A DNA stretch of 64,000 bases. It comes from an uncultured Clostridia bacterium (GTDB taxonomy: Bacteria > Bacillota > Clostridia > Christensenellales > UBA1242). Shown one piece after another: positions 1 through 55,148 of this stretch. Both the position numbers and the translations under genes were made by a program. Under the pieces are notes generated by a model that ran no database searches, had not been told where the DNA came from, and worked only from the letters and a program-made list of their open reading frames with translations. Position 1 is the first letter of the stretch; every line of letters starts with the position of its first letter. Location: positions 726 through 64,725 of the forward strand of contig CALWTE010000018.1 of the NCBI GenBank assembly GCA_944384375.1, read 5' to 3'.

Positions 1-804
1 TCGGGCATTCCCACAGACGAAATAGACGCTTTATTCGCTGGTGATTTAATGAATCAAATTACTAGTAGTAGTTTTGCTGCGCGTTCTTTAAAACTCCCCT
101 ATTTAGGGCTTTTCGGCGCTTGTAGTACTATGGCAGAATCTCTAATTATGGGCGCTTGCCACGTTGATGGTGGTTTTGCTAGGTACGCCGCTTGTGCTAC
201 AGGCAGTCATTTTAGTAGTGCAGAAAAACAATTTCGTTATCCACTAGAATTAGGCACGCAACGCCCACCCTGTTCACAGTGGACAGTAACAGGGACTGGT
301 TGTACAATATTAGGTAACGCTGATATGGGTATAACTGTTGATAGTGCCACTATAGGGAAAGTCGTAGATTGGAATATAACAGATGCCAACAATATGGGGG
401 CTGCTATGGCACCCGCTGCTGCTGATACGCTAAAAGCACATTTAGAAGATACTGGCAGAAAATTAGCAGATTATGATTTAATACTAACGGGCGATTTGGG
501 TAAATTAGGTAGTGAAATCTTAATAGACTTGATGGAATATAACGGCTATCATTTAGGCACAAACTATAATGATTGCGGGCAAATGATTTTTTCCAACACA
601 CAAAAAACTTTTATGGGTGGCAGTGGTTGTGGTTGTGGTGCAAGTATCTTAAATAGTTATGTGTTTGATAGAATGGAAGAACACAAACTCAACAACGTTT
701 TGTTTATAGCCACGGGGGCACTAATGAGTAGTTTGTCCAGTCAACAAGGTAATTCAATTCCTAGCATTGCACACGCAGTTAGTTTTAATATAGGAGGTAA
801 ATAA
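1..804 (+). CDS. spoVAD: Stage V sporulation protein AD (SpoVAD), 5' end cut by window edge
   Basis: Frame 1 is open from base 1. SpoVAD-type thiolase-like sequence (GDLMNQITSS, GSGCGCGAS). The stop is followed directly by the ATG of a spoVAE-like gene. Confidence 0.85.
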   Translation, partial: SGIPTDEIDALFAGDLMNQITSSSFAARSLKLPYLGLFGACSTMAESLIMGACHVDGGFARYAACATGSHFSSAEKQFRYPLELGTQRPPCSQWTVTGTGCTILGNADMGITVDSATIGKVVDWNITDANNMGAAMAPAAADTLKAHLEDTGRKLADYDLILTGDLGKLGSEILIDLMEYNGYHLGTNYNDCGQMIFSNTQKTFMGGSGCGCGASILNSYVFDRMEEHKLNNVLFIATGALMSSLSSQQGNSIPSIAHAVSFNIGGK

Positions 805-1173
805 ATGTTTGACCCTATAATGTATTTAAAAGTATTTGCTGTTGGCGGACTTGTCTGTCTAATCGGTCAAATATTAATTATCACCACCAAAATGACTAGT
901 GCTAGAATTTTGGTTTCCTTTTTGTTATTTGGGGCTTTGCTAGAAACAATCGGAGTTTATCAAAAAATTAACGACTTCGCGGGGGCGGGTATTTCTATAC
1001 CTATTATAGGTTTCGGTGCAAGCCTTGCTCGTGGCGCTATCAACGCGGGACAAACAGAAGGTTTAATAGGCGTGTTGACTGGTGGTTTGTCCGCGACCGC
1101 AGGTGGAATTGCTGCGGCAATTTTTGCGGGCTTCCTTGTCGCCTTGATTTTTAATAGTAAAACTAAAAAATAG
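805..1173 (+). CDS. spoVAE: Stage V sporulation protein AE (SpoVAEB-type small membrane protein)
   Basis: 122-aa polytopic Gly/Ala-rich membrane protein. RBS AGGAGG upstream. Canonical position after spoVAD. Confidence 0.85.
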   Translation: MFDPIMYLKVFAVGGLVCLIGQILIITTKMTSARILVSFLLFGALLETIGVYQKINDFAGAGISIPIIGFGASLARGAINAGQTEGLIGVLTGGLSATAGGIAAAIFAGFLVALIFNSKTKK

Positions 1174-1212
1174 TTATGAAACAAAAAGGGTCGTCCAGCA
1201 TATATAAATAAT

Positions 1213-1887
1213 ATGCGTAAATTTAAATTTAAAAAAAGGTTTAATTTTAAATCAAAATGGTTTATCGCAACGGCGATACTGGTCGTGATTATTGTGCTTA
1301 TAATTTTATTTTTTAATTTTTGCGTCAACCCTGTAATACTCACAATTAGCGAAGCAAAAATAAAATCAATTACATCTCAATCAGTCAATAGCGCCGTACA
1401 AACTGTTATTTCAAATAATAACGTGTATGATGACCTTATCCAAATAACCACAGACAGTGAAGGAAATATTGCAAGTTTTCAAGTAAATACAATTTTAATA
1501 AACAAAATGGCAAAAGAAATAGGCAAAACCGCACAGCAAAACTTAAATTTACTTAGTAGCGAAGGGGTGGACATTCCCCTGGGTACACTAACGGGAATTC
1601 CAGCATTAGTAGGCACTGGCCCTACCCTATATTTTAATGTGGACCCTATCGGCACGATATCTTCTTCTTTTAATTCGGAATTTGTCAGTGCAGGGATAAA
1701 CCAAACAAATCACCGCATTTTTATGAATATGAAGGCATCAGTATGCGTTGTGTTACCCACCGCTACAAAAAATATTGAAACAAATACACAAGTTTTGCTC
1801 TGTGAATCAATAATCATAGGTAAAGTGCCAGACACTTACTTGAATTCCGACAGTCTAGACGAAATGATGAACTTAATTCCAGGCTGA
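1213..1887 (+). CDS. yunB: Sporulation protein YunB-like
   Basis: N-terminal basic segment plus a single TM, then a YunB-like domain (GIPALVGTGP, NQTNHRI). Sits next to the spoVA genes. Confidence 0.7.
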   Translation: MRKFKFKKRFNFKSKWFIATAILVVIIVLIILFFNFCVNPVILTISEAKIKSITSQSVNSAVQTVISNNNVYDDLIQITTDSEGNIASFQVNTILINKMAKEIGKTAQQNLNLLSSEGVDIPLGTLTGIPALVGTGPTLYFNVDPIGTISSSFNSEFVSAGINQTNHRIFMNMKASVCVVLPTATKNIETNTQVLLCESIIIGKVPDTYLNSDSLDEMMNLIPG

Positions 1888-2006
1888 TTTAAAAGAGAAT
1901 GCCATGCTTATGTTTTAATTACTATCCTACTTCCAAAAAGTTACAAACTATAGAGTTTTTACAAGGTTAAGTGCTTTATAAAATTTAATATTATTTAAGC
2001 AAAAAA

Positions 2007-2036
2007 ACTACGGGTATAACCTGTGGTTTTCATTTT
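2007..2036 (+). terminator. Intrinsic terminator after yunB
   Basis: ACUACGGG-UAUAA-CCUGUGGU hairpin (with G-U pairs) followed by UUUCAUUUU. Confidence 0.55.
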
Positions 2037-2040
2037 ATCA

Positions 2041-2071
2041 ACAAAAAATATTAGGTTTTTACGCCTAATAT
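2041..2071 (-). terminator. Intrinsic terminator after the carboxypeptidase gene
   Basis: Minus strand AUAUUAGG-CGUAAAAA-CCUAAUAU followed by UUUUUGUUG, 6 nt after the stop codon. Confidence 0.7.
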
Positions 2072-2077
2072 TTTCTT

Positions 2078-3247
2078 TTAATTTGCTAAAGGCCAGTATT
2101 TAGAAATTTCTTTGATTGAGTCGCCATAAGTAAAGGCTTCAATGTCGTTTGCCACAACTAAATCAATTTCATCTAAGACAATTTCGTCTTGTGAAATTAT
2201 AGCCTTACCTACTATATTTCCTTTGTTTAAAGGTGCGCTAACATTATCAAAAACATAATCTACTTTTACGTCTGCTTGTTCACCTTTTTTGTTTAAAGTA
2301 TAGTAACTATTATTTGCTCTAATTATAGGAGCGTTTTTTGCTTTGTTAATGGTAAATTCAACATTTAAATCTTTATCTTTGTCTAAAATACAAGTGCTAG
2401 AATAATTTGCAAATCCCCAATCAAACATAGTTGTACAAGTGTCAAAGCGTGCTTGACTGCTTTCAGCGCCTAAAACTACTGCGATTAATCGCATGTTGTT
2501 CTTTTTGGCCGTTGCGGACATACAAAAGCCCGCTTCGTTTGTAGAACCTGTTTTACCAGCATCACAGCCAGTGTATCTTTTTAACAACTTGTTGGTATTT
2601 GCCATTTCAGTAATTCTTCCTGAAGGATGTTGAAAATCTTCCATCCAAATCTTGCTAATTTCAAAATAAAGTGGGTACTTCAAAACTTCCTTCATAATTA
2701 ACGCGACATCATTTGCGCACGAATAAGCGTTTGCACTAGGTAAACCTGTACAATTACAATAATTTGTATCAAGAGCACCTAGAGATTTTGCTTTTTCATT
2801 CATTAAAATTACAAAATCAGATTCCGAACCTGCTATTTCTTCCGCCAACATTACACTTGCATCATTTGCTGAACTAATTATTACTGCGTGCAACAAATTC
2901 TCCACTGTATAAGTTGAATTTGCGTCAATAAACACTTGCGAACCGCCCATTCCCGCTGCATTTTCACTAGCAATGAGTTCTTTATCTAATGTTAAATCTC
3001 CATTATCAAGTGCTTCAAAAGCAAGTAGCAGCGTCATAAGTTTTGTCACACTCGCAATCGGCAAATGTTCCTTAGAATTAAATTCAGACAAGATTTGTCC
3101 CGTTTGATATTCCATTAAAACCCTAGATTTGCCCGCTTCTACCTTTTCAGCAGATACTGCAAAAACATTGTTTAAATTTGAAAAACTTGCAACAATTAAT
3201 ATTAAAGCAACAAATAAACCTATAAGTAAATTTTTCTTTTTAGCCAT
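2078..3247 (-). CDS. D-alanyl-D-alanine carboxypeptidase (PBP5 family, DacB/DacF-like)
   Basis: SxxK (SVTK), SxN (SAN) and KTG (GKTGST) motifs, plus a signal/anchor segment. I prefer the ATG at 3247 (MAKKK) because AAGGAGG lies 6 nt upstream. The ORF track start at 3283 is the alternative. Confidence 0.9.
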   Translation of the reverse strand: MAKKKNLLIGLFVALILIVASFSNLNNVFAVSAEKVEAGKSRVLMEYQTGQILSEFNSKEHLPIASVTKLMTLLLAFEALDNGDLTLDKELIASENAAGMGGSQVFIDANSTYTVENLLHAVIISSANDASVMLAEEIAGSESDFVILMNEKAKSLGALDTNYCNCTGLPSANAYSCANDVALIMKEVLKYPLYFEISKIWMEDFQHPSGRITEMANTNKLLKRYTGCDAGKTGSTNEAGFCMSATAKKNNMRLIAVVLGAESSQARFDTCTTMFDWGFANYSSTCILDKDKDLNVEFTINKAKNAPIIRANNSYYTLNKKGEQADVKVDYVFDNVSAPLNKGNIVGKAIISQDEIVLDEIDLVVANDIEAFTYGDSIKEISKYWPLAN

Positions 3248-22981: not shown

Positions 22982-24118
22982 TTAAACAGTTTCAATATCT
23001 TCAAACAAATCGTCTTCTATATTGTCGTCAATTGTAGAATTAATTTCTTGTACGCGTTTGTCTTGTTCTTCTTTCTCGAGAGTAGATTCGCTCTTTACAT
23101 CAATCTTCCAACCAGTCAAACGAGCGGCAAGTCTAACATTGCAACCGTCTTTACCTATTGCAAGACTTAATTTATTGTCTGGAACTATTACCCTACTAGA
23201 TTTTGCTTCTTGATTGATTTCCACACTGACAACTTCGGCTGGGCTAAGCGCATTAGCAATATATTCAAAGATGTCGTCACTATATCTAATTACGTCAATT
23301 TTTTCGCCATTAATTTCTTCAATTACGGCATTAATTCTTGCACCCCTAGCACCTACACAAGCACCCACTGGGTCAAGATTAGCATCTTGAGAAAATACTG
23401 CCAATTTAGTCCTATTACCTGCTTCACGTGCAATTGATTTAATCTCAACTTCGCCACTGGTTAATTCTGGTACCTCTAATTCAAATAACTTTTGCACAAA
23501 GTTTGGAGTCGTACGGCTAACTTGAATTTCAGGTCCAAAAGGTGTTTCTTTTACGCGTTTGATAATTACTTTTACGCGAGAGCCAATTTCCAACTTTTCG
23601 TTTGGAATGACGTCTTTGTAATTTAGCACACCTTCTGCTTCTATACCACTTAATTCCACATAGAAATTGTTTGCATCGCGTCTGCGGATAATTGCTGTCG
23701 TGATTTGGTCACCCTTTGCGTCTAGTTCGGCAATTAAATTATTTCTTTCCGCTTCCCTTAATCTCTGCATAACGACTTGTTTTGCTGTTTGTGCGGCAAT
23801 TCTACCAAAACTCTTTGGAGTAACTTCTTCTGAAACGATATCGCCTACTTGATAACTAGATTTGATTTTTTTAGCGTCTTCTAGACTAATTTCTTTGTCC
23901 GAATCGTTCACTTCGTCTACTACTGTCTTGTACGCTAAAACCTTGATAGTTCCTTTCTCTGGGTTTAACTTAACGGTAGCGCTCCTTGCTTCGCCAAAGT
24001 TCTTTTTGTAAGCACTAGTTAAAGCGCTCTCCAAAGCGGAAATAAAGAACTCCTTGTTGATTTTTTTCTCTTGTTCTAATTGGTCTAATGCCAAAAAGAA
24101 ATCTTTGCTGTTAATCAT
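22982..24118 (-). CDS. nusA: Transcription termination/antitermination factor NusA
   Basis: 378 aa with an N-terminal domain, S1, two KH domains (GACVGARGARI, IGKDGCNVRLA) and an acidic tail. Confidence 0.95.
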   Translation of the reverse strand: MINSKDFFLALDQLEQEKKINKEFFISALESALTSAYKKNFGEARSATVKLNPEKGTIKVLAYKTVVDEVNDSDKEISLEDAKKIKSSYQVGDIVSEEVTPKSFGRIAAQTAKQVVMQRLREAERNNLIAELDAKGDQITTAIIRRRDANNFYVELSGIEAEGVLNYKDVIPNEKLEIGSRVKVIIKRVKETPFGPEIQVSRTTPNFVQKLFELEVPELTSGEVEIKSIAREAGNRTKLAVFSQDANLDPVGACVGARGARINAVIEEINGEKIDVIRYSDDIFEYIANALSPAEVVSVEINQEAKSSRVIVPDNKLSLAIGKDGCNVRLAARLTGWKIDVKSESTLEKEEQDKRVQEINSTIDDNIEDDLFEDIETV

Positions 24119-24160
24119 TTAATTTGCTCCTTGATAAAATTACTTTTTATTATAAAAGTT

Positions 24161-24182
24161 ATGAGTGGGCGACCCCACTCAT
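24161..24182 (-). promoter_or_regulatory. Strong hairpin in the nusA 5' leader (AUGAGUGGG-GUCG-CCCACUCAU) followed by AACUUUUAUAAU
   Basis: Perfect 9-bp stem read directly. It lies between the candidate promoter and the nusA RBS. Confidence 0.45.
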
Positions 24183-24194
24183 TTAGATAGAATT

Positions 24195-24223
24195 ATTATA
24201 TCATATAAAAATAAAAATATCAA
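24195..24223 (-). promoter_or_regulatory. Candidate sigma-A promoter of the nusA operon (TTGATA-17-TATAAT)
   Basis: Hexamers and spacing read on the minus strand. The -35 lies in the 3' arm of the upstream terminator. Confidence 0.55.
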
Positions 24224-24237
24224 TATTTTATTGATAC
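24205..24237 (-). terminator. AT-rich intrinsic terminator after the PolC-N/exonuclease ORF
   Basis: UAUCAAUA-AAA-UAUUGAUA followed by UUUUUAUUUUUAU. Confidence 0.5.
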
Positions 24238-24247
24238 TTTTTTGCAA

Positions 24248-25789
24248 TTATATTAATTTTACAAAGACTTTTGCTGTCGCATAAGCGTCGGCAAGCGCTC
24301 TATGTGCGTTTTCTAGCGTAATATTTAATGCTTTTACCACTGTACCTAACTTATAGTTACTCAAACTTGGCACTTTGTCTCTAGCAAGTTTTAAAGTATC
24401 TATTTGCTCATTATCAAATAACAAACGGAATCTTTTACCTATGTTGTTTAAAAATTGATAGTCAAAATCTATATTATATGCACTCAACACAGAACCATAA
24501 GCAAAGCGATAAAAATCAGGTAAAGCCTGTTCAATAGTAGGCGCATTTTCCACCATTTCGTTACTAATATGAGTAATGGACGTAATTTCTTCGGGAATGT
24601 CTGTTTGTGGGTTAATTAATGTTTGAAAAGTTTCAATGATAGAACCTTTTAAAATTTTTACTGCACCTATTTCTATTATTTGGCAATTTTTAGGGTCTAG
24701 ACCTGTAGTTTCTAAGTCAAAAACGACTACACTATCGTGAGTGTCCCAGTATTCGCTAGTTTTGTTTGTTAGAGAGAACAAGTCCATTTGTTTTACTTCA
24801 TACACAGGTTGTGGCTTAATATAATAATAGTCTGGATTTACCTTCCTATAAACATACTTCATTTCTTTAGTTAAAATTTCGCATTTTGCCAAAGAATTTG
24901 CCCTTAAATTCCTATTATCTTTAAATTCACTTAGATAACCACCTACCGCTAGACTCATACCGTCTTCCACAATACTCAAGGCTTTCATATCCTTATCATT
25001 TGCAAAAATAACTACCTCAATACTGCCACTAGGGTCTGTCAAAGTAAACGAAATCTTCTTCTTTTCGCTAGGTTGCGTTTCGCCTTTTCCACGAGACATA
25101 TAAGTAGAAACAAGTAAATTTGAAACAACCCCAGCAACCATAACTTCTTCGTCAGAGTTTAAATCTTTAATAAATATAGGTGAATTTGCCATATATTTAC
25201 CATAAAAACACTCACCTAATTCAATAACCATTTTGTTAATTCTTGCTTCTTCCGCAAGTGCGTCAGTTAGGCCTGTGTCAACCTTAGGCATATCTTTTAT
25301 AAGTTCGTCATAGTTAGGCGCATCTTTGGTTACTTCAAAATTTACTTCAAAGTTTATAAAAAATCTTTTGTTTAAATAATCTATTAAGTCTTTATCAAAG
25401 TTACGGTTAATTAACAACTGTTTGCGCATTTCGTCACAAAGAAAACTAATCTTTGCTCCGTCTTTTATTTCTGTAATAATGACATCATCTTTTTTAAATT
25501 CATTTTTCAAAACTTTGTAATTTGTATTAATAAATTGCTCAACAACATTATATATACTATCAATATCAAAACAACTTTTATTAAACTTTACTACAACTTT
25601 ACATAAATTGTTTATATCTGTTTTAATTGTGTCTGAAATTTTGTCCTTATCTTCCTGAGATAAAGGGATACCTTCAGGATAAATAAAGTTTACGTCAAGT
25701 TCATTGTTGTTTTCGTTAAATTTAATCTTTTCAAGTTTTAATTTGTTGTCGTCAAAACCTAAATCTTTAATCTTCTGTAATGTAGTCAA
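24248..25789 (-). CDS. PolC-like N-terminal region + OB fold + DEDDh 3'-5' exonuclease, with no PHP or polymerase domains
   Basis: C-terminal Exo I FDLETTG, Exo II YNIDFDYQFL, Exo III HRALADAYATAKVF. A central OB-like segment (VMVAGVVSNL..SFTLTDPSGSIEVVIFAN). It occupies the slot between rseP and nusA where polC normally lies. Confidence 0.7.
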   Translation of the reverse strand: MTTLQKIKDLGFDDNKLKLEKIKFNENNNELDVNFIYPEGIPLSQEDKDKISDTIKTDINNLCKVVVKFNKSCFDIDSIYNVVEQFINTNYKVLKNEFKKDDVIITEIKDGAKISFLCDEMRKQLLINRNFDKDLIDYLNKRFFINFEVNFEVTKDAPNYDELIKDMPKVDTGLTDALAEEARINKMVIELGECFYGKYMANSPIFIKDLNSDEEVMVAGVVSNLLVSTYMSRGKGETQPSEKKKISFTLTDPSGSIEVVIFANDKDMKALSIVEDGMSLAVGGYLSEFKDNRNLRANSLAKCEILTKEMKYVYRKVNPDYYYIKPQPVYEVKQMDLFSLTNKTSEYWDTHDSVVVFDLETTGLDPKNCQIIEIGAVKILKGSIIETFQTLINPQTDIPEEITSITHISNEMVENAPTIEQALPDFYRFAYGSVLSAYNIDFDYQFLNNIGKRFRLLFDNEQIDTLKLARDKVPSLSNYKLGTVVKALNITLENAHRALADAYATAKVFVKLI

Positions 25790-25813
25790 AATTTTCTCCT
25801 AAGTAGTATTTAT

Positions 25814-26950
25814 TCAAAGAAAGAAGAAATGGTAGATATCTACTATAATTACTAAGGCAAAAAGAACAATCAGCCCGCCAAAATGGATATACCCTTCAAC
25901 TTTTCTATTAATAGGTTTGCCTCGTATCCATTCAATTGTAGTAAATACCATTCGCGAGCCGTCTAGTGCAGGTATAGGCAAAATATTGAATATCGCTAAG
26001 TTTGCCGCAATAAATGGCAAGAATACAAATAGGTTTGCAATATTTACTTGAGAATACTCGGCAATTGTAGAAATCGTAGTAAACGGCCCGCCTATCTGGT
26101 CTAGACCTACCGCCCCCGTAAGCAACTGCCACAAGAATACTAAAACTTGCCATGCAAATCCTGCAGCCAGCGGCACACATCTAGCAAGTGATTCAACAAA
26201 ATTATGTTTGTATGGCACGGTAGAAAACCCAACCATCAAACTTTCCGTAGTTGTGCCGTCTTCGTTTGCTACCGTTTCTACAAAGAAGTTTACCATAACT
26301 TCTTGCAATTGTCCATCACGTTCAATAGTTAAACTAAGGTTGTTGTATTGTTTATACTCATGGTCGCCGATAGTTAAAGTTGTATAATTTGCCTTTTCTT
26401 CGTCTGTCATAGAGTTATAATGATTTTGAAGCAAAACATTTGCTGTATCACCAGTTACAAAATCAATTTTTACACCGTCCATTTCACGAATTATGTCGTT
26501 TGTTTGAATAGTGGAATCTTGATATCTATTGTCAACACCTGAAATTTGTGGCACGTCGTAACCAAATGCAATAAGTAATATAAAAGCAAAGATAACTGCC
26601 GAAACAAAGTTAAAGAATACACCACCAAACTGAACGATTAAACGTTTCCATGGTGCTTGATTATTAAACGCTCTAGGGTCGGCATCATCTTCATCTTCAC
26701 CAGCAAAGGCACAGTATCCACCCAACGGAATTAAACGGATACTGAAAACCTCGCCAGATTTTAAAGTTTTCTTAAATAATGCTTTACCAAAGCCAATGGA
26801 AAACTCGTCAATTTTGAACTTAAATATTTTACCAAATGTATAATGACCAAATTCGTGAATTGTAATCATTACCAAAAGAACTAAGATTGCTAAAACTATA
26901 TAGCCTATCGTCGTCATTACACTGGCAAAATCTGCAAGTAGCGAAATCAA
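25814..26950 (-). CDS. rseP: RIP site-2 metalloprotease RseP/RasP
   Basis: HEFGH zinc motif, a central PDZ-like insert and NILPIPALDG. TTG start with GGGAGG upstream. Confidence 0.85.
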   Translation of the reverse strand: MISLLADFASVMTTIGYIVLAILVLLVMITIHEFGHYTFGKIFKFKIDEFSIGFGKALFKKTLKSGEVFSIRLIPLGGYCAFAGEDEDDADPRAFNNQAPWKRLIVQFGGVFFNFVSAVIFAFILLIAFGYDVPQISGVDNRYQDSTIQTNDIIREMDGVKIDFVTGDTANVLLQNHYNSMTDEEKANYTTLTIGDHEYKQYNNLSLTIERDGQLQEVMVNFFVETVANEDGTTTESLMVGFSTVPYKHNFVESLARCVPLAAGFAWQVLVFLWQLLTGAVGLDQIGGPFTTISTIAEYSQVNIANLFVFLPFIAANLAIFNILPIPALDGSRMVFTTIEWIRGKPINRKVEGYIHFGGLIVLFALVIIVDIYHFFFL

Positions 26951-45852: not shown

Positions 45853-47004
45853 TTAATTATTAATATCTTCATTTACGTTGCTATTCTCAACCAAAACAAA
45901 AACTGCTGTTATTATATTATTATAAACATCTTCCTTTTTTAATCTTATACTTTCAGTGTAACCTAGAATATTACCACTTAAATCTTCCCAGTGAGAAAAC
46001 TTATAGCCTTGTTGCGCCACTGTTGCAACAAAAATGATAGTATCGTCGTCATTTAAATTTTCAAAATTATCACCCACAAGCGAAACTTTTCCGCCATATG
46101 TTGCTGTAACATTTACGCCCTGTGCTAAATTATCTGTAAAAGTTGCAGTATAATTAATATTTTTATCAACAATCACATTTAATTGATTACTTGTTGTTAT
46201 TATATTGCCTTGTTCGTCTTGCCAGTTTTTAAAATAATAACCATCATTGCTAATTGCAATGCTTGTTATAGTACTACCTTCGTCATAATTCCCTTGAATT
46301 GTATTTGTAATAGTTCCGTATCCTGAATTATCTGTTTGAATATTTACTGAATATTGTTTTACCCACTTTGCAATCGCCGTTTGGTCTGTTGTATAACTCC
46401 AAACAGTATTTTCGTCTATAAATGTTTCATTAATATACCCCCCAGCAAAACGATAACCTTCCATAGTAGGTGTAGGTAAAGAGCCTATTGTTTCCCCATT
46501 CGTTACTACTATTGAATTAGTAGACACATTTCCGCCATTTGCGTTGAAGGTTAGAGTATTACTCTTTTCTTTTACTAAATCTGCAAATGGAAATTCAAAA
46601 TTGCAATCTTTTGGTCCTTGTCCAGCACTTAAAATCATAATACCTTCAGGATTTTCAGCAGTCCAATTATTTCCATTCCTAACAAACTTATAATAATATA
46701 TATTTCTCCAAAAGTCGTAAATTGTCACTTCTTTTTCATCCTGTATCCAAATGTAATTTTCATTTAAATCAATTTCTATGTAATTGATATTGATATAAGT
46801 TTGTCTACCACTTGAATAATATTCTATATCCACATTAATAATCGTTCCATAAATATTATCATACGTGATACTTACCCCATCACCATCATAGACAACCTCC
46901 TCTGCTTTTAAGTTTGGCTTTAATGCAAAATTTACACAAATTCCTAAAATTATAACAAGTAAACCTATTAATAAACTTAGGAATATGCTTTTTCTTTTAC
47001 TCAT
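45853..47004 (-). CDS. Membrane-anchored surface protein with InlB B-repeat / Listeria-Bacteroides-repeat-like domains
   Basis: N-terminal TM anchor. Repeat units of the type TLTFNANGGNVS..GYRFAGGY and GYYFKNWQDEQGN / GYKFSHWEDLSGN. Confidence 0.6.
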   Translation of the reverse strand: MSKRKSIFLSLLIGLLVIILGICVNFALKPNLKAEEVVYDGDGVSITYDNIYGTIINVDIEYYSSGRQTYININYIEIDLNENYIWIQDEKEVTIYDFWRNIYYYKFVRNGNNWTAENPEGIMILSAGQGPKDCNFEFPFADLVKEKSNTLTFNANGGNVSTNSIVVTNGETIGSLPTPTMEGYRFAGGYINETFIDENTVWSYTTDQTAIAKWVKQYSVNIQTDNSGYGTITNTIQGNYDEGSTITSIAISNDGYYFKNWQDEQGNIITTSNQLNVIVDKNINYTATFTDNLAQGVNVTATYGGKVSLVGDNFENLNDDDTIIFVATVAQQGYKFSHWEDLSGNILGYTESIRLKKEDVYNNIITAVFVLVENSNVNEDINN

Positions 47005-47779: not shown

Positions 47780-50700
47780 TTATTTAAAAATTATGTTTTC
47801 GGGCATCAAATAGCCATAAAGTTCATTTTGCATTGCCGTACTACCATCTACTTTTGTAGGGAAAGTGAAGGCTTTATTTTGTTTGCTACATTTTATTACT
47901 ACAGGGTGTGTGCCTGGATAACGCTCTAAAATTTCAAAAACTGCATCTTTCACTTCTTCTTCTGTCAAATCAAATTTTAAGTATAATTTTTCACAAACTT
48001 TAGGTTCTTCATTTTTAGGTTGCTCGTCTTGTTTCGGCACATCAGTCTTCCAAACAATAATATCTTCGGGAAGTATAATAGGTCTGTCTCCTTCCTTTAT
48101 GCTTATTTTCCCTATAAAAGTCATCATATTGTCTACATGGAGTATGTTTTTAAATTTTTCATAAATTTTAGGAAAAACCAAAACTTCAAAAGTCCCATAT
48201 AAATCTTCCACGGTAACGACTGCCATTTCTTTGTTACCTACTTTTGTATTCATTCGCTTAACATTAGTAAGTACTCCGCCACATTTTACCTGCTTGCCGT
48301 CTTCTAACCCTTCGTAAATGGTCATTTCTTCTTCCCCGTCTTCACTTTGCACAACGGTAGGAATAAGCATATTACTGTTAAAGTTAAATTCCTTCATCTT
48401 ATCTCTAAACTGGTCTAAAATGTGCCCACTAACATATACACCTAAAACTTGCTTTTCAAATTTTAACTTTTGTTGCTCTGTGTATTCAGGAATGTCAGGA
48501 TATTCAACTATATTTAATTTTTTATCTTCCTTTAATAGGTTATCAAATAAAGTAATTTGTCCTTGATTTTGAGACTTTCTATCACTAGAAACACGCTCTA
48601 CAATAGTTTCATAAACGGCTATCATTTGGCTCCTAGACACACCGAAACAATCAAAAGCGCCCGACCAAATCATAGACTCTAAGAATCGCTTGTTATGTGC
48701 TTGACCACCCATACGAGTAATAAAGTCCTGTAAACTGGTAAATGGCCCGTTTTTATTGCGTTCTTCTACTAATGATTCAACAAGTCCTACGCCGACATTT
48801 TTAATACCACCTAAACCATACCTAATGGTGGTATCGTCTTCCACACTAAAATATACCAAACTCTTATTTACATCAGGTGGTAATATCTTTATATCGTGTG
48901 CACGTGCCAACTCCATATAGTGAGTTAATTCGTCATTCTTTGTAATACGGTTGTTTATAATAGCAGTGTAAAATTCAATTTTATGGTAGTATTTCATCCA
49001 CGCGGTTTGATATGTAATAAATGCATAAGCCGCTGCGTGTGCCTTGTTAAAGGCATAACTACCGAACTTCTCCATTTGGCTCCAAAGTGCTTCGGCATCT
49101 TCTAACTTCATACCACGTTTTAATACACCATCAATACTTTTCTTGCCTTCTGGGTCTTCCCAACCGTAAATAAAACGTTGTTTCTCAACAGGCAATTTAT
49201 CGGCTAATTTCTTACCCATAATCTTACGCACGCCATCAGCCTGCCCCATGGTGTAACCTGCCAAAACCTGACAAAGTTTCATAACCTGCTCTTGATAAAC
49301 CATAACACCATATGTTACATCTAACACGTCTTTCATTTTTGAATCTGGGTAAATAATTGATTCGGGATTTTTACGGTTTTTAATATATGTAGGAATTTCG
49401 TCCATAGGACCTGGACGGTACATAGCGAGAATAACGATAATCTCTTCTATATTTACAGGCTTCATTTCCTTAGCAAAGCCTGAAATACCGCCACTTTCTA
49501 ACTGGAACACCCCATCATTATCACCCGAACCTATAAGTTTATAAATATTTGGGTCATCATAATGGAAATCACGTGAATAAAAGTCTACATCTTCCCCAGT
49601 ACGTTGTTTTATGAGTTTTATCATTAAGTCCAAATCGGTTAAAGTGATTAGACCTAAAAAGTCCATTTTTAATAAGCCTAAATGTTCTGTTTCGTTCTTG
49701 TCAAACTGAGTGGTTACCATATCGCCGTTTTTTGCTAATGGTATATGGTCAGAAATCGGGTCACAACAAATAACCACACCTGCCGCGTGAATACTGGTAT
49801 TTCTAGGCATATTTTCTAGTTTAATTGCTGTATCAACTATTTTTTGCACTAGCACGTCACTGTCATACATTGCCTTTAATTCGGGTACGGCATATTGCTC
49901 GTCTTCTGGCTTGCCACTAATACCGAAAACCTTTTCAATTGCGGGAGATTTTGGCATTTTTGTTGGGAAAAGTTTCGTCATCTTATCCACTTCGCTATAT
50001 GGCATTTTTAGCACTCTAGCTACGTCTTTAATCGCCGCTTTTGCTGCCATTGTACCAAATGTGATAATCTGGCTAACGTTTGGCTCGCCATATTTTTCTA
50101 TAACATAATCAATAGTTTGCTCACGTTTTACAGGGCAAAAGTCTATATCAAAGTCTGGCGGACTGACACGTTCTGGGTTTAGGAAACGCTCAAACCACAA
50201 GTCATATTTTAGCGGGTCAATAAGCGTAATACCTATCGCATATGCTAGGATACTAGCAGCACCACTACCACGTCCTGGACCTACTGGCACGTCGTGTTCC
50301 CTAGACCAGTTAATAAAGTCCCAAACTACAAGATAGTAATCAACATAGCCACTTTTAATTAGAGTATTCATTTCAAACTCGGCACGCTCTCTAATCGCTG
50401 GAGTTATTTCACCATAGCGTTTTATCAAACCTTCGTTAACAAGTTCCCACAAGTATTCTGTATTGTCTTTACCGTCTGGAGCAGTAAATTTAGGGTAAAA
50501 CTGACTCTTAAAATCAAGCTCCACATTGCATTTTTCGGCGACTTCCAAAGTATTTGCAATACTTTCTGGGTGCGAAGCAAAAACGGATTTCATTTCGTCC
50601 GCCGTTTTTAAATAAAACTGATTGCCGTCCATTCTCATTCTGTTAGGGTCGTCAATAGTCTTACCCGTTTGAATACATAACATTATATCTTGCATTTCTG

Positions 50701-51334
50701 CGTCTTCAGGGTAAAGATAATGCACGTCATTAGTCGCTATTGTCTTAACACCCAAATCTTCAGCAAGCCTAAAAAGGTCGGGCAAAATTTTACGTTGTTC
50801 TTCTATGCCGTGGTCTTGTACTTCTATATAAAAATCACCTGGCGCAAACATATCACGCAATCTTGTACCGAATTTAACGGCTTCTTCATACAAACCTTTT
50901 GATAATAGTCTAGGAATATCACCCGCTAGACACGCAGAACTACAAATCAAACCTTCCGCATGCTCGGCTAAGGTCTTATAGTCAATACGTGGTTTATAGT
51001 AAAAACCTTTTGTCCACGCAATACTATTTAATTTAATTAAGTTATGGTAGCCAACTTCGTTTTTTGCTAGAATTATTAAGTGCGCTGGGTTTGGTTTGCC
51101 TTGCTTGTAATTTAAATCATCTACAATATAAAATTCTGTACCTATAATGGGTTTTATGTCGTTTGCTTTGCATGCTTCATAAAATTTAACCGCACCGTAC
51201 ATATTGCCGTGGTCAGTTATCGCACAAGCGGTCGCACCACGTTCTTTTAAAATCTTAACTAACTTTTTTATTCTTGCCGCACCATCTAACAAACTATATT
51301 CAGTATGTAAATGTAAATGTACGAAATCTTCCAT
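47780..51334 (-). CDS. dnaE: DNA polymerase III alpha subunit, DnaE type
   Basis: PHP N-terminus HLHLHTEYSLLDGA, catalytic region PPDFDIDF and LLKMDFLGL, a C-terminal OB fold. 1184 aa. Confidence 0.95.
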   Translation of the reverse strand: MEDFVHLHLHTEYSLLDGAARIKKLVKILKERGATACAITDHGNMYGAVKFYEACKANDIKPIIGTEFYIVDDLNYKQGKPNPAHLIILAKNEVGYHNLIKLNSIAWTKGFYYKPRIDYKTLAEHAEGLICSSACLAGDIPRLLSKGLYEEAVKFGTRLRDMFAPGDFYIEVQDHGIEEQRKILPDLFRLAEDLGVKTIATNDVHYLYPEDAEMQDIMLCIQTGKTIDDPNRMRMDGNQFYLKTADEMKSVFASHPESIANTLEVAEKCNVELDFKSQFYPKFTAPDGKDNTEYLWELVNEGLIKRYGEITPAIRERAEFEMNTLIKSGYVDYYLVVWDFINWSREHDVPVGPGRGSGAASILAYAIGITLIDPLKYDLWFERFLNPERVSPPDFDIDFCPVKREQTIDYVIEKYGEPNVSQIITFGTMAAKAAIKDVARVLKMPYSEVDKMTKLFPTKMPKSPAIEKVFGISGKPEDEQYAVPELKAMYDSDVLVQKIVDTAIKLENMPRNTSIHAAGVVICCDPISDHIPLAKNGDMVTTQFDKNETEHLGLLKMDFLGLITLTDLDLMIKLIKQRTGEDVDFYSRDFHYDDPNIYKLIGSGDNDGVFQLESGGISGFAKEMKPVNIEEIIVILAMYRPGPMDEIPTYIKNRKNPESIIYPDSKMKDVLDVTYGVMVYQEQVMKLCQVLAGYTMGQADGVRKIMGKKLADKLPVEKQRFIYGWEDPEGKKSIDGVLKRGMKLEDAEALWSQMEKFGSYAFNKAHAAAYAFITYQTAWMKYYHKIEFYTAIINNRITKNDELTHYMELARAHDIKILPPDVNKSLVYFSVEDDTTIRYGLGGIKNVGVGLVESLVEERNKNGPFTSLQDFITRMGGQAHNKRFLESMIWSGAFDCFGVSRSQMIAVYETIVERVSSDRKSQNQGQITLFDNLLKEDKKLNIVEYPDIPEYTEQQKLKFEKQVLGVYVSGHILDQFRDKMKEFNFNSNMLIPTVVQSEDGEEEMTIYEGLEDGKQVKCGGVLTNVKRMNTKVGNKEMAVVTVEDLYGTFEVLVFPKIYEKFKNILHVDNMMTFIGKISIKEGDRPIILPEDIIVWKTDVPKQDEQPKNEEPKVCEKLYLKFDLTEEEVKDAVFEILERYPGTHPVVIKCSKQNKAFTFPTKVDGSTAMQNELYGYLMPENIIFK

Positions 51335-52478: not shown

Positions 52479-53219
52479 CTATTTATTTTGTTCTGTAACT
52501 TCTATGTTAACTATTCTGTCAAGTGGAATATTATACTTTTCTATAAATTCTTTTGGAACAGAACATTCGGCTATTCTTGACGGACTGTGAGCATCACTAC
52601 CTATGATGAATTTTGCCTTTGAATCAATCAGTTCTTGTGCTTGTTGTGGCGTAAAAGTTGTACGTTTGCCGTTAAATTCAATCAAGACGCCTTTTTTGGC
52701 ACAAGCGTCTGCTAGCCTTTTTGTATTAACTGGCACAACATAATTAGGGTGTACTACTACTTTTACAGGATACTTTTCTATTGCCTTAATATAACTATCG
52801 GTAACTTTTTCTATATATTTTTTTGTAGGCTTTAAAAGTAGGTTGTGCATATTAAATTTGAAACTATCCTTTACTCCCTTACCATAAGTAAAATAATGAA
52901 TACCAAAAATGCAGTAGTCAAAGTTAGCAAAATCTTCTGGCTTCATATCTAATTCGCCATTTAAATTTACTAAGTTTGCTTCAATGCCTAGCAAAATCTC
53001 AATTTGCGGATAAACTTTTCTTAATCTTTCAATTTCGGCACGCATTTCAGCGACTTTTTCTCTCTTAACCCCATTTTTTACGTGATTAAAACCATGGTCA
53101 GAAATACCTATTGTTTTTAACCCTAGTTCTACTGCTCTAGCGACATTTTCTTCTATTGTACCTACCCCATCACTATAAATAGTATGTGTATGATAATCTG
53201 CTGTCATTTTAAAGTCCAT
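52479..53219 (-). CDS. PHP-domain phosphoesterase (histidinol-phosphatase family)
   Basis: DYHTHTIYSDG and ISDHG motifs. 246 aa. Confidence 0.75.
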   Translation of the reverse strand: MDFKMTADYHTHTIYSDGVGTIEENVARAVELGLKTIGISDHGFNHVKNGVKREKVAEMRAEIERLRKVYPQIEILLGIEANLVNLNGELDMKPEDFANFDYCIFGIHYFTYGKGVKDSFKFNMHNLLLKPTKKYIEKVTDSYIKAIEKYPVKVVVHPNYVVPVNTKRLADACAKKGVLIEFNGKRTTFTPQQAQELIDSKAKFIIGSDAHSPSRIAECSVPKEFIEKYNIPLDRIVNIEVTEQNK

Positions 53220-54122: not shown

Positions 54123-55148
54123 CTACTCTCCTTTTTTATGCCATTCTTCTAATTGTGCGTTAGATGTAAACACATTGAGTACTTGTAGTTTATTTTGTAA
54201 AGCCTTTTCAAAATCGCTATATTCATTTGAGTAAATTGTCTTGCCGTCTACACTAAACATACCTATGCGTGTAAGCCTAGATTGAATTTCGGCAGAAGTT
54301 AAGTATTCTATAAATTGTGTGGCTTTTTCTATTTTATTTGTATCAGTTGTGGTTATCGCTATAAATTGTACTAAATCGGTGTAAGTATTTAAGTATCTAT
54401 AATTTATATTACTAATCACTCCTAAGTTTACTTTATTGTTTAGTCTATAAAAATCACGTTGTGTGCCTAGTAGCACTTGAAACTCGTTTCCACGTAAGAA
54501 GCTTTCATATGCTTCATACTGTGTGCGGGGAGTTTTGTCTATTAGGCTAATCTCATTTTCGGGTAATGCTTTGTCTGGTTGGTTATAGTTGTATCCTGTG
54601 CCTATTATAGGTAAATCTTTATTTAAACCCTGTAAACCCGATAGACTTAAATCAGTTATATCATTCATTCCGCAAAGAAGGTATCCACCGAAACACCACG
54701 GAACAGCCAAAGTTTTACCGTCTTTTATTCCCCCCGCTTGCAAATCATTCCTTACAGAAAAGTTTTCTTCTATTACTTGTGCAATTCCAGAGACTAAGTC
54801 ACCCGCCCCCACGCCAAAACTAATCATATCAGGACGGGACCCATTTTCTAGCATAAGTTTTGCTTGCTCTAAATCTAATGAACGCACGAGTACATAATTA
54901 GATTTTGTCTTGTCTTGATACATATAGGCCGTGCGTTCTAAGAAATTTGCTCTACTTGCTGTACCGCCTTCAAAGGTATCAATTTCCCATAACTCCAAAA
55001 AAGTAGTAGTTTCTATATTATTATCTAACCAACCTGTATCGCCCTTTCTTATCTGTGGCAATATAAAATAAGGGGCAACAAGTAAAAACACGGCTACTAT
55101 TATAGCAAAAATAGCAAAAAATATTTTTTCTTTCTTCCCTAAATTCAA
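54123..55148 (-). CDS. Hypothetical membrane-anchored extracytoplasmic protein (solute-binding-protein-like)
   Basis: N-terminal TM plus a roughly 300-aa domain loosely resembling a type-2 periplasmic binding fold. TTG start. The function is not established. Confidence 0.45.
   Translation of the reverse strand: MNLGKKEKIFFAIFAIIVAVFLLVAPYFILPQIRKGDTGWLDNNIETTTFLELWEIDTFEGGTASRANFLERTAYMYQDKTKSNYVLVRSLDLEQAKLMLENGSRPDMISFGVGAGDLVSGIAQVIEENFSVRNDLQAGGIKDGKTLAVPWCFGGYLLCGMNDITDLSLSGLQGLNKDLPIIGTGYNYNQPDKALPENEISLIDKTPRTQYEAYESFLRGNEFQVLLGTQRDFYRLNNKVNLGVISNINYRYLNTYTDLVQFIAITTTDTNKIEKATQFIEYLTSAEIQSRLTRIGMFSVDGKTIYSNEYSDFEKALQNKLQVLNVFTSNAQLEEWHKKGE

What the first reader, a model, noticed from the sequence alone, without database searches (positions are those of the whole stretch)
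24119..25789. PolC-like N-terminus + OB + proofreading exonuclease without any polymerase, in the exact slot of polC
In Bacillus and Clostridium the order is cdsA-(dxr)-rseP-(proS)-polC-rimP-nusA. Here rseP is followed by an intact 513-aa ORF. Its C-terminal 170 aa are a DEDDh exonuclease (FDLETTG / YNIDFDYQFL / HRALADAYATAKVF). This is preceded by an OB-like segment and a roughly 200-aa N-terminal region, which is the order seen in PolC before its PHP/Pol modules. There is no PHP motif and no palm, thumb or fingers. The stop codon is followed by only 129 bp (terminator, promoter, leader hairpin) before nusA, so there is no room for a polymerase or rimP and no frame-shifted remnant is visible. 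Three explanations are possible: (i) a free-standing proofreading or clamp-associated subunit derived from PolC that works with the DnaE at 47780-51334, (ii) a stable remnant alongside a full polC elsewhere, or (iii) part of a split polC. My assignment of the first 300 aa to PolC-N/OB rests on architecture and position, not on an alignment.
Basis: partly seen in the sequence, partly recalled or inferred. Interest (0 to 1): 0.65.

Follow-up and report, generated by a model that had tools for sequence, protein, structure and literature searches.

The report
PolC-derived stand-alone clamp-binding proofreading exonuclease
In a large clade of uncultured gut Clostridia the gene slot that normally holds the replicative polymerase PolC holds a conserved 513-residue protein that keeps PolC's N-terminal domain, OB fold and proofreading exonuclease, lacks the polymerase, and has a sliding-clamp-binding motif in a new position, so it probably proofreads for the other replicase, DnaE1.

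Summary
ORF 24248-25789 (-) is an intact 513-aa gene between rseP and nusA, and four independent assemblies span the junction without indels. All three parts are PolC-like and co-linear. Against real clostridial PolC, hhalign gives 99.1% probability (E 1e-18) overall, 91% for the NTD alone and 98.6% for the OB alone; controls give 0.1-0.3%. The exonuclease is 45-51% identical to PolC's. There is no PHP, palm/fingers or HhH remnant.

It is not a one-off. 792 clusters at 50% identity share the N-terminal region, and the top 150 are all ~500-575 aa or shorter. Members sit in the same slot where relatives carry polC, and family-bearing lineages split from PolC-bearing ones with 100% bootstrap on flanking genes. 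The DEDDh residues are invariant (68/68), and natural SNPs run 17 synonymous to 2 conservative.

New here: the disordered OB-Exo linker carries a near-invariant Q-x-x-[LFIM]-F clamp-binding motif (QMDLF), whereas PolC has it at or near the C-terminus. The window's DnaE1 has an intact PHP site and its own clamp motif.

Best reading: a PolC-derived, clamp-tethered accessory proofreader for DnaE1. Whether a full polC exists elsewhere in the genome could not be tested. A shorter NTD+OB-only subfamily also exists.

The parts
24248..25789 (-). Whole CDS (513 aa plus stop), TTG start; member of a conserved NTD-OB-linker-Exo family
   Evidence: AF2 model with mean pLDDT 86
25232..25789 (-). N-terminal domain, residues 1-186: two small alpha/beta (type II KH-like) subdomains (about 2-72 and 76-153) plus a helical tail; homologous to the PolC NTD
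   Evidence: hhalign NTD alone 91%, E 1e-6, 142 columns; permutation null; secondary structure; Foldseek gives only generic tandem alpha/beta, KH and BON matches
24875..25231 (-). OB fold, residues 187-305; homologous to the PolC OB domain
   Evidence: Pfam PF01336 (48 of 49 members); hhalign OB alone 98.6%, E 1e-15; translation
24734..24874 (-). Linker, residues 306-352: a structured part with conserved Y321, V324 and P326, then a low-confidence flexible part; no PHP remnant
   Evidence: pLDDT below 50 at 332-342; hhalign linker vs PolC PHP-N 0.3%; conservation
24776..24790 (-). Putative beta-clamp-binding motif QMDLF (residues 334-338); family consensus Q-x-x-[LFIM]-F
   Evidence: Q334 in 67 of 68, F338 in 65 of 68, position 337 L/F/I/M/V; translation; PolC has the motif at or near its C-terminus instead
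24251..24733 (-). DEDDh 3'-5' exonuclease domain, residues 353-513; catalytic D358, E360, D443, H496, D501
   Evidence: Pfam PF00929 E 1.7e-38; PDB 2p1j (PolC exonuclease) E 2.9e-33; catalytic residues invariant in 68 of 68; 45-51% identity to the clostridial PolC exonuclease
24119..24247 (-). 129-bp spacer before nusA: promoter-like site 24223..24195, hairpin 24182..24161 with T-run, RBS AGGAG; no rimP
25814..26950 (-). rseP, conserved upstream neighbour (defines the polC slot)
   Evidence: NCBIfam TIGR00054; synteny
22982..24118 (-). nusA, conserved downstream neighbour (defines the polC slot)
   Evidence: NCBIfam TIGR01953; synteny
47780..51334 (-). dnaE (DnaE1-type, 1184 aa), the only C-family polymerase in the window and the presumed partner; all nine PHP metal ligands intact; internal clamp motif QITLF at 926-930
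   Evidence: NCBIfam PRK06826 1409 bits, above its 1260 cutoff; Pfam; PHP residues read from the translation; clamp motif

Best explanation
The gene encodes a free-standing descendant of PolC. It keeps PolC's N-terminal domain (two KH-like subdomains), OB fold and DEDDh 3'-5' exonuclease. It has lost both halves of the PHP domain, the polymerase core and the HhH module, and with them PolC's C-terminal clamp-binding motif. An equivalent clamp-binding pentapeptide (QMDLF) sits on a flexible linker between the OB and the exonuclease. Proposed mechanism: the linker motif docks the protein on one protomer of the DnaN sliding clamp while DnaE1, through its own QITLF motif, occupies the other. The tethered exonuclease then removes mis-incorporated 3' nucleotides in trans. 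The OB, and possibly the NTD, would hold single-stranded DNA or another replisome subunit. The protein would be a second proofreader beside DnaE1's intact PHP site, as mycobacterial DnaQ is. The change arose once at the base of a large clade of gut Clostridia and has been inherited vertically in the polC slot. Shown: the domain homologies, the synteny, conservation of the catalytic residues and the motif, purifying selection, and the single origin within the sample. Inferred: clamp binding, DNA proofreading with DnaE1, and absence of a polC polymerase elsewhere in the genome.
For: Co-linear homology of NTD, OB and Exo to real PolC (Foldseek top hit is full-length PolC 9qpc_A, E 1.2e-18, 389 columns; NCBIfam best model is PolC). 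Same genomic slot as polC in relatives. 792 clusters share the N-region and none of the top 150 is PolC-length. ORF lengths are bimodal, 504-548 aa against 1320-1642 aa. DEDDh residues invariant in 68 of 68 and Q-x-x-[LFIM]-F near-invariant in a low-pLDDT linker. PolC carries the motif at or near its C-terminus and has no conserved one before the exonuclease (PolC rows read in Table S1 of PMC3919608). Purifying selection: 17 synonymous against 2 conservative changes, plus a Ser codon-family switch. Family-bearing and PolC-bearing lineages split with 100% bootstrap on NusA+InfB and on UppS+RseP. DnaE1 has an intact PHP site and its own clamp motif. Precedents: mycobacterial DnaQ binds the clamp through Q[Y/L]ALF and cooperates with PHP-proficient DnaE1 (PMC11348249); some Clostridia have DnaE1 only (PMC3919608).
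Against: Absence of a full polC elsewhere in these genomes was not shown, because only a 64-kb window and +/-10-kb loci were available and the indirect read-based test failed its control. Clamp binding rests on a sequence motif alone. DnaE1 already has an intact PHP proofreader, so a second proofreader is not strictly required. In the one metatranscriptome examined, assembled RNA contigs cover nusA and rseP but not this gene; this is weak, since contigs show presence and not absence. The exonuclease tree does not place the family inside clostridial PolC (PolC clade 12% bootstrap). The window shows the strong gene co-orientation and purine skew usually associated with PolC-bearing genomes. A subfamily with no exonuclease and no motif exists, so the NTD-OB module must have some role beyond positioning an exonuclease.
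Confidence: 0.55

Rival explanations
1. Paralogue beside a normal PolC. The genomes keep a complete polC at another locus, and this protein is a duplicated and truncated copy that took over the old slot. It would serve as a clamp-associated repair or replication-restart exonuclease, or as a regulatory subunit, rather than as DnaE1's proofreader.
For: Whole genomes could not be searched. PolC+DnaE1 is the usual clostridial set (PMC3919608; PMC12926913). 9 of the 28 polC loci examined showed neither rseP nor rimP/nusA in the flanks read, so polC can lie elsewhere. The window's strand bias and purine skew look PolC-like.
Against: In every family-bearing locus that could be read, the slot holds the family gene and no polC lies within +/-7 kb. 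Family-bearing and PolC-bearing lineages are cleanly partitioned in the trees. No assembly among the 80 retained GTDB loci appears with both a family gene and a polC, although only the best 80 of 586 were kept. DnaE1-only Clostridia are already known.
Confidence: 0.25
2. RNA-processing enzyme. Tandem KH-like domains, an OB fold and an RNase T-type DEDDh domain, next to rimP-nusA-infB-rbfA, could make a 3'-5' exoribonuclease for rRNA or tRNA maturation. Some database records call it a 3'-5' exoribonuclease.
For: Source names. The NTD model matches the KH-type domains of uS3 and NusA weakly. The gene neighbours ribosome-biogenesis genes.
Against: The position is inherited from polC. All three domains are closest to PolC, a DNA enzyme. 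A conserved clamp-binding motif has no role in RNA processing. The Foldseek KH matches are weak (E about 1e-3 to 1e-2) and generic.
Confidence: 0.1
3. Ancestral stand-alone module. An NTD-OB-Exo protein existed before PolC, and PolC arose by fusing it to a polymerase, so this clade would preserve the precursor.
For: In the exonuclease NJ tree the family is a grade outside a weakly supported PolC clade that includes the Thermotoga PolC and the PolC of PDB entry 9qpc.
Against: In PolC the exonuclease is inserted inside PHP, with NTD-OB upstream of PHP-N, so a simple fusion cannot produce that order, whereas two deletions produce the family. The family is confined to one clade inside Clostridia, while PolC spans Bacilli, Clostridia, Negativicutes, Fusobacteria, Thermotogae and Tenericutes (PMC3919608). 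Support in the exonuclease tree is only 12%.
Confidence: 0.05
4. Decaying remnant, pseudogene or assembly artefact.
For: No RNA contigs over the gene in one metatranscriptome.
Against: Hundreds of full-length orthologues down to about 30% identity. Invariant catalytic residues. 17 to 2 synonymous bias. Four independent assemblies agree. The AF2 model is confident.
Confidence: 0.02

Closest known systems
PolC (PolC-type DNA polymerase III alpha subunit of Firmicutes), N-terminal half
   Same: Same order NTD (two KH-like subdomains) - OB - DEDDh exonuclease. Profile-level homology of each part. 45-51% identity in the exonuclease. Same chromosomal slot between rseP and rimP/nusA.
   Different: No PHP domain on either side of the exonuclease, and no palm, thumb, fingers or HhH. 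About 513 aa against 1320-1642 aa. The clamp-binding motif lies in the OB-Exo linker instead of at the C-terminus. Scores 180 bits against the 873-bit cutoff of PRK00448.
E. coli Pol III epsilon (DnaQ)
   Same: A separate DEDDh proofreading subunit that contacts the beta clamp through a short motif (QTSMAF) on a flexible segment and works with a DnaE1-type polymerase (PMC3664792; PMC12309361).
   Different: Epsilon has no NTD or OB. Its clamp motif follows the exonuclease, and a C-terminal tail binds the PHP domain of alpha. Here the protein ends with the exonuclease and the motif precedes it. The family's exonuclease domain is only distantly related to epsilon's (phmmer E about 1e-5; long branch).
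Mycobacterial non-canonical DnaQ (Exo + BRCT + C-terminal clamp motif)
   Same: An accessory DnaQ-type proofreader with a strong clamp motif (Q[Y/L]ALF) that coexists with a PHP-proficient DnaE1 (PMC11348249). This is the closest functional analogy.
   Different: The accessory module is BRCT rather than PolC NTD+OB. The motif is C-terminal. The evolutionary origin is unrelated.
Exo-less PolC of Clostridia and Negativicutes, and Bacteroidetes DnaE1 with an N-terminally fused exonuclease (Timinskas et al. 2013)
   Same: Both show that the exonuclease module of C-family replicases has been lost, gained or moved during evolution, and that Clostridia are a hotspot for such variants.
   Different: Those variants keep the polymerase. 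This family is the reciprocal case: the accessory modules and the exonuclease without the polymerase.

Membership tests
PolC-type DNA polymerase III | N-terminal domain of two KH-like subdomains | tested here: met
   hhalign NTD alone 91%, E 1e-6, 142 columns; nulls reach at most a score of 23.7 against 47.1. Pfam NI/NII do not hit, but they also miss 3 of 6 real clostridial PolCs.
PolC-type DNA polymerase III | OB fold N-terminal to PHP | tested here: met
   PF01336 hit; hhalign OB alone 98.6%, E 1e-15.
PolC-type DNA polymerase III | PHP domain interrupted by the exonuclease | tested here: not met
   No PF02811 hit; linker vs PolC PHP-N 0.3%; the protein ends with the exonuclease.
PolC-type DNA polymerase III | Polymerase core (palm, thumb, fingers) and HhH | tested here: not met
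   No PF07733, PF17657 or PF14579 hit; tblastn of PolC against the window finds no remnant; NCBIfam 180 bits against an 873-bit cutoff.
PolC-type DNA polymerase III | Clamp-binding motif at or near the C-terminus | tested here: not met
   The family ends ...AKVFVKLI; its motif is internal at 334-338.
DnaQ / epsilon-family DEDDh exonuclease (PF00929, TIGR00573) | DEDDh catalytic residues and the domain model above its cutoff | tested here: met
   PF00929 133 bits (GA 24); TIGR00573 105 bits (cutoff 71.5); D358, E360, D443, H496 and D501 invariant in 68 of 68.
E. coli-type epsilon subunit | C-terminal tail that binds the PHP domain of alpha | tested here: not met
   No sequence follows the exonuclease domain; Pfam's RNase_T envelope ends at residue 509 of 513.
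E. coli-type epsilon subunit | Physical and functional association with the replicative polymerase and the clamp | not testable with these tools
   Only a sequence motif is available; no complex prediction or biochemistry was possible.
Mycobacterial non-canonical DnaQ | BRCT domain plus C-terminal clamp motif | tested here: not met
   No BRCT hit in any of 49 members; the motif is internal.

The most novel reading that the evidence does not exclude
A whole, species-rich clade of gut Clostridia (Christensenellales-like) has discarded the PolC polymerase and replicates with DnaE1 alone. It retains PolC's NTD-OB module as a free-standing replisome subunit, with the exonuclease and a relocated clamp motif in most lineages and without either in a short-form subfamily. 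This would mean that the PolC N-terminal region, whose function has never been established, has a polymerase-independent job that selection preserves. These proteins would then be a natural dissection of that job and a living intermediate on the PolC+DnaE1 to DnaE1-only path proposed by Timinskas et al.
Probability: 0.4. Interest if true: 0.8.

Novelty: new variant of a known kind. Interest (0 to 1): 0.66.

Why it matters
[quoted passage not shown] This family shows that in a large uncultured gut clade the polC locus has been reduced to NTD-OB-Exo, and in some lineages to NTD-OB, under strong purifying selection and with a clamp-binding motif in a new place.

If these genomes lack PolC, this is a documented intermediate of PolC loss and a new type of trans-acting proofreader for DnaE1. 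Either way, the family gives a tractable, naturally isolated module for asking what the PolC NTD and OB bind. It also matters for annotation, because these genes are currently labelled only '3'-5' exonuclease' or 'exoribonuclease'. It may be relevant to PolC-targeted antibiotics, since organisms without the PolC polymerase would be intrinsically insensitive.

Tried and rejected
- Pfam PolC N-terminal models (PF14480, PF11490) give no hit in the window protein or in any of 49 members. This was judged uninformative after the positive control, because 3 of 6 genuine clostridial PolCs also lack hits.
- Foldseek with an NTD-only model gives only weak, generic tandem alpha/beta matches (PrgH, BON, uS3 and NusA KH domains) and no PolC NTD in the 50 best matches listed. 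The fold is consistent with KH-like subdomains but is not a specific test.
- The exonuclease-domain NJ tree with E. coli DnaQ as outgroup puts family plus PolC against DnaQ at 100%, but the internal split has only 12% support, so the direction of evolution is unresolved (the first attempt timed out).
- The search for a hidden polC failed on every route. The supplement tables of PMC12926913 and PMC3919608 are truncated or contain only genome lists. Cluster look-up returned no names. Laying run X1 on the nearest relative's polC locus at 80% likeness failed its internal nusA/infB control.
- Split polC was rejected as the main reading: there is no PHP fragment in the protein, no adjacent polymerase gene and no remnant in the window.
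- Mis-assembly and pseudogene readings were rejected.
- Literature searches for a prior description found none. One search was malformed.
Full report
**1. The observation**

The window carries an intact 513-codon ORF on the minus strand at 24248-25789, with a TTG start. It lies between rseP (25814-26950; TIGR00054) and nusA (22982-24118; TIGR01953). The local order on the minus strand is rpsB-tsf-frr-uppS-cdsA-rseP-ORF-nusA-ylxR-L7Ae-infB-rbfA.

Pfam finds an RNase_T/DEDDh exonuclease at residues 355-509 (E 1.7e-38) and an OB fold at 241-300 (E 3e-7). The best NCBIfam model is PolC (PRK00448, 180 bits), far below its 873-bit cutoff. The best solved structure by sequence is the Thermotoga PolC exonuclease domain 2p1j, at E 2.9e-33.

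The 129-bp spacer before nusA holds a strong promoter-like site and then a GC-rich hairpin with a T-run. tblastn with 28 full-length PolC proteins finds no polymerase remnant anywhere in the 64 kb, and rimP is absent from the window.

Contigs from four independent sequencing runs span the stop codon and the nusA junction with no indel or joint. The identical protein, in the same gene order, occurs in at least four samples. The runs that name a source are mostly chicken-gut metagenomes.

**2. It is a large protein family, not a truncation peculiar to this genome**

A word-indexed search returned 1204 proteins at E <= 0.001. Most of the best 120 are full-length homologues of 503-530 aa with 33-99% identity, and the few that carry a name are called '3'-5' exonuclease' or 'exoribonuclease' of uncultured Clostridia.

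An exhaustive HMM search with only the N-terminal 345 residues (alignment A2) against 1.84 billion cluster representatives found 792 clusters at E <= 1e-3 and 274 at E <= 1e-30. The best 150 are all between 240 and 577 aa, most of them about 500-550 aa, and none is PolC-length.

In GTDB species representatives the family occurs in uncultured Clostridia and Christensenellales-type MAGs: Candidatus Onthoplasma, Scatosoma and Neoclostridium, and Christensenellaceae. The same scan also recovered genuine PolC through the shared exonuclease motifs. ORF lengths are cleanly bimodal, 504-548 aa against 1320-1642 aa.

**3. All three parts are PolC-like and co-linear**

- The AlphaFold model is confident, with mean pLDDT 86. 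It shows two small alpha/beta units (about 2-72 and 76-153), an OB barrel (189-305), a linker whose second half is disordered (pLDDT below 50 at 332-342), and the exonuclease (353-512).
- Foldseek's top PDB hit is full-length PolC (9qpc_A, E 1.2e-18) aligned over 389 columns, against about 164 columns for exonuclease-only hits.
- A profile of the family N-region against a profile of the region upstream of the exonuclease in 28 clostridial PolCs gives hhalign 99.1%, E 1e-18, over 282 co-linear columns.
- Split into parts, the NTD alone gives 91% (E 1e-6, 142 columns) and the OB alone gives 98.6% (E 1e-15). Reversed or mismatched-domain controls give 0.1-0.3%.
- The NTD score of 47.1 compares with 8.6 +/- 1.4 for column-permuted nulls and 15.2 +/- 2.6 (maximum 23.7) for block-permuted nulls.
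- The linker shows no similarity to the PHP-N segment that separates the OB from the exonuclease in PolC.

Pfam's PolC N-terminal models do not hit any family member. [quoted passage not shown] A Foldseek search with the NTD alone gave only weak, generic matches, and no PolC NTD appeared among the 50 best matches listed.

**4. Positional orthology and a single origin**

Genuine clostridial polC lies in uppS-cdsA-rseP-(~1 kb)-polC-rimP-nusA-ylxR-infB. The family gene lies between rseP and rimP/nusA in nearly every locus that could be read, at identities down to about 30%.

Distance trees of the flanking genes separate all family-bearing lineages from all PolC-bearing lineages with 100% bootstrap. 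This holds for NusA+InfB (919 columns, 15 against 5 taxa) and for UppS+RseP (533 columns, 11 against 10 taxa). An Oscillospiraceae MAG and a 'Christensenella sp.' MAG that carry PolC are the nearest neighbours.

PolC is spread over Bacilli, Clostridia, Negativicutes, Fusobacteria, Thermotogae and Tenericutes. The PolC domain order (NTD-OB-PHPn-Exo-PHPc-Pol) yields the family by two deletions, but the reverse does not follow from a simple fusion. The family is therefore best read as derived from PolC once, at the base of this clade. The exonuclease-domain tree alone does not resolve this, since the PolC clade has only 12% bootstrap.

**5. The gene is functional and constrained**

The five DEDDh residues (D358, E360, D443, H496, D501) are invariant in 68 of 68 members. 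Between the window and a natural variant strain (run X4), the gene carries 17 synonymous and 2 conservative (I273V, A182S) substitutions. It also carries a linked TCN-to-AGY serine codon switch, and no indels.

**6. A relocated clamp-binding motif**

In the otherwise variable, low-confidence part of the linker, Q334 is present in 67 of 68 members, position 337 is L/F/I/M/V, and F338 is present in 65 of 68. The consensus is Q-x-x-[LFIM]-F, most often QMDLF. This is the canonical bacterial beta-clamp-binding pentapeptide.

The same pattern is what Timinskas et al. predict as the clamp motif of PolC (at the extreme C-terminus) and of DnaE1 (internal, near residue 920) in their Table S1. A QLDLF variant of the E. 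coli alpha motif is cited as very tight, with KD about 6.9 nM (PMC12309361).

In nearly all of the 28 PolCs examined the motif (mostly NQLSLF) sits at or within a few residues of the C-terminus, and there is no conserved motif upstream of the exonuclease. The family lost PolC's motif together with the polymerase and carries an equivalent one on a flexible tether next to the exonuclease.

**7. The partner polymerase**

The only C-family polymerase in the window is a 1184-aa DnaE that passes the PRK06826 cutoff (1409 against 1260 bits). It has PHP, palm, fingers, HhH and OB domains. All nine PHP metal ligands are intact (H8, H10, D17, H42, E67, H85, C135, D203, H205), and there is an internal clamp motif, QITLF, at 926-930.

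Clostridial DnaE1 has been argued to have everything needed to replicate a genome alone, and some Clostridia have only DnaE1 (PMC3919608).

**8. Most likely mechanism**

The protein probably docks on DnaN through the linker motif while DnaE1 occupies the other cleft of the clamp. It would then excise mis-paired 3' termini in trans as a second proofreader beside the DnaE1 PHP site.

The closest functional precedent is mycobacterial DnaQ. That protein binds the clamp through Q[Y/L]ALF and acts synergistically with the PHP proofreader of DnaE1 (PMC11348249). E. coli epsilon is the classical clamp-contacting proofreader (PMC3664792; PMC12309361).

The OB and NTD presumably bind single-stranded DNA or another replisome component. 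The NTD is reported to be distantly related to tau domain V (title of reference 18 in PMC3919608), but I did not test that relationship. Clamp binding, DNA specificity and cooperation with DnaE1 are inferences.

**9. What remains open**

I could not determine whether a complete polC exists elsewhere in these genomes.

The strong gene co-orientation and purine skew of the window are features usually linked to PolC-bearing genomes. They may reflect either a hidden polC or phylogenetic inertia. One metatranscriptome shows RNA contigs over nusA and rseP but none over this gene, which is weak evidence for low expression.

**10. A further reduction**

Nine clusters of 293-325 aa form a coherent subfamily that stops within a few residues of the conserved Cys closing the OB. 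These proteins have no clamp motif and no exonuclease. In locus L086 the gene is complete, lies directly downstream of rseP, and is followed by a gene on the opposite strand. Selection therefore retains the NTD-OB module on its own in some lineages, which points to a function of the PolC N-terminal region that depends on neither the polymerase nor the exonuclease.

**11. Comparison and verdict**

The protein is not a PolC: PHP, the polymerase core, HhH and the C-terminal motif were all tested and are absent. It is a member of the DnaQ/RNase_T DEDDh superfamily. It is not an E. coli-type epsilon, because it has no C-terminal alpha-binding tail, and not a mycobacterial-type DnaQ, because it has no BRCT domain.

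Two bacterial polymerase censuses (2013, 2026) and targeted text searches turned up no description of this architecture. I classify it as a new variant of a known kind: a PolC-derived, free-standing NTD-OB-Exo protein with a relocated clamp motif. I rate its interest at 0.66, limited mainly by the untested absence of PolC and the lack of any biochemical evidence.

Noticed in passing
L086:1988-2920 and L087:1262-2239 (also P0198, P0218, P0229, P0232, P0241, P0250, P0257): A short-form subfamily of 293-325 aa has only the PolC-like NTD and OB. It stops within a few residues of the conserved Cys that closes the OB and has no clamp motif or exonuclease. In L086 it is a complete gene directly downstream of rseP, and the next gene is on the opposite strand.
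   Followed up: partly
window 24119-24247 and the whole window: rimP lies between the family gene (or polC) and nusA in most relatives where the flank could be read. It is missing here, and tblastn does not find it anywhere in the 64 kb (best E 0.8).
   Followed up: partly
window 24161-24223 (-): The nusA leader has a near-consensus extended -10 promoter-like site (TTGATA-17-TATAAT, TG present), followed by a 9-bp GC-rich hairpin with a T-run just before the nusA RBS. It resembles an attenuator-type leader.
   Followed up: no
L032, L069, L081, L083 (polC ORFs): Four PolC-bearing relatives have shortened PolC N-termini, with the exonuclease starting at aa 296-337 instead of about 360-615. They include L032, one of the two lineages closest to the family clade. 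L032 and L069 give no Pfam NI, NII or OB hit.
   Followed up: no
window 52479-53219 (-): A stand-alone 246-aa PHP-domain protein is encoded two genes upstream of dnaE, in the order PHP protein - whiA - dnaE.
   Followed up: no
window 24137-24154 and 24247-24265: In run X1 a second contig (10,173 nt, depth 7.6) shares only two 18-19-nt pieces with the window, and they lie 1.56 kb apart in that contig against 93 bp here. It may come from a related organism with extra sequence between the family gene and nusA, or the matches may be chance.
   Followed up: no
window 24070-25796: In metatranscriptome run X18, assembled RNA contigs cover nusA and rseP but none covers the family gene.
   Followed up: partly
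window 1-2100: Gene orientation and GC skew both flip near 1.9-2.1 kb: plus-strand genes with positive skew before, minus-strand genes with negative skew for the remaining 62 kb. 47 of 51 ORFs of at least 150 aa are on the minus strand. This may be a point where replication forks converge.
   Followed up: no
window 54123-55148 (-) and 45853-47004 (-): A 341-aa ORF between murB and uvrC has no Pfam match at E <= 1e-8. A 383-aa protein with Listeria-Bacteroides and InlB B-repeat domains sits just downstream of dnaE.
   Followed up: no
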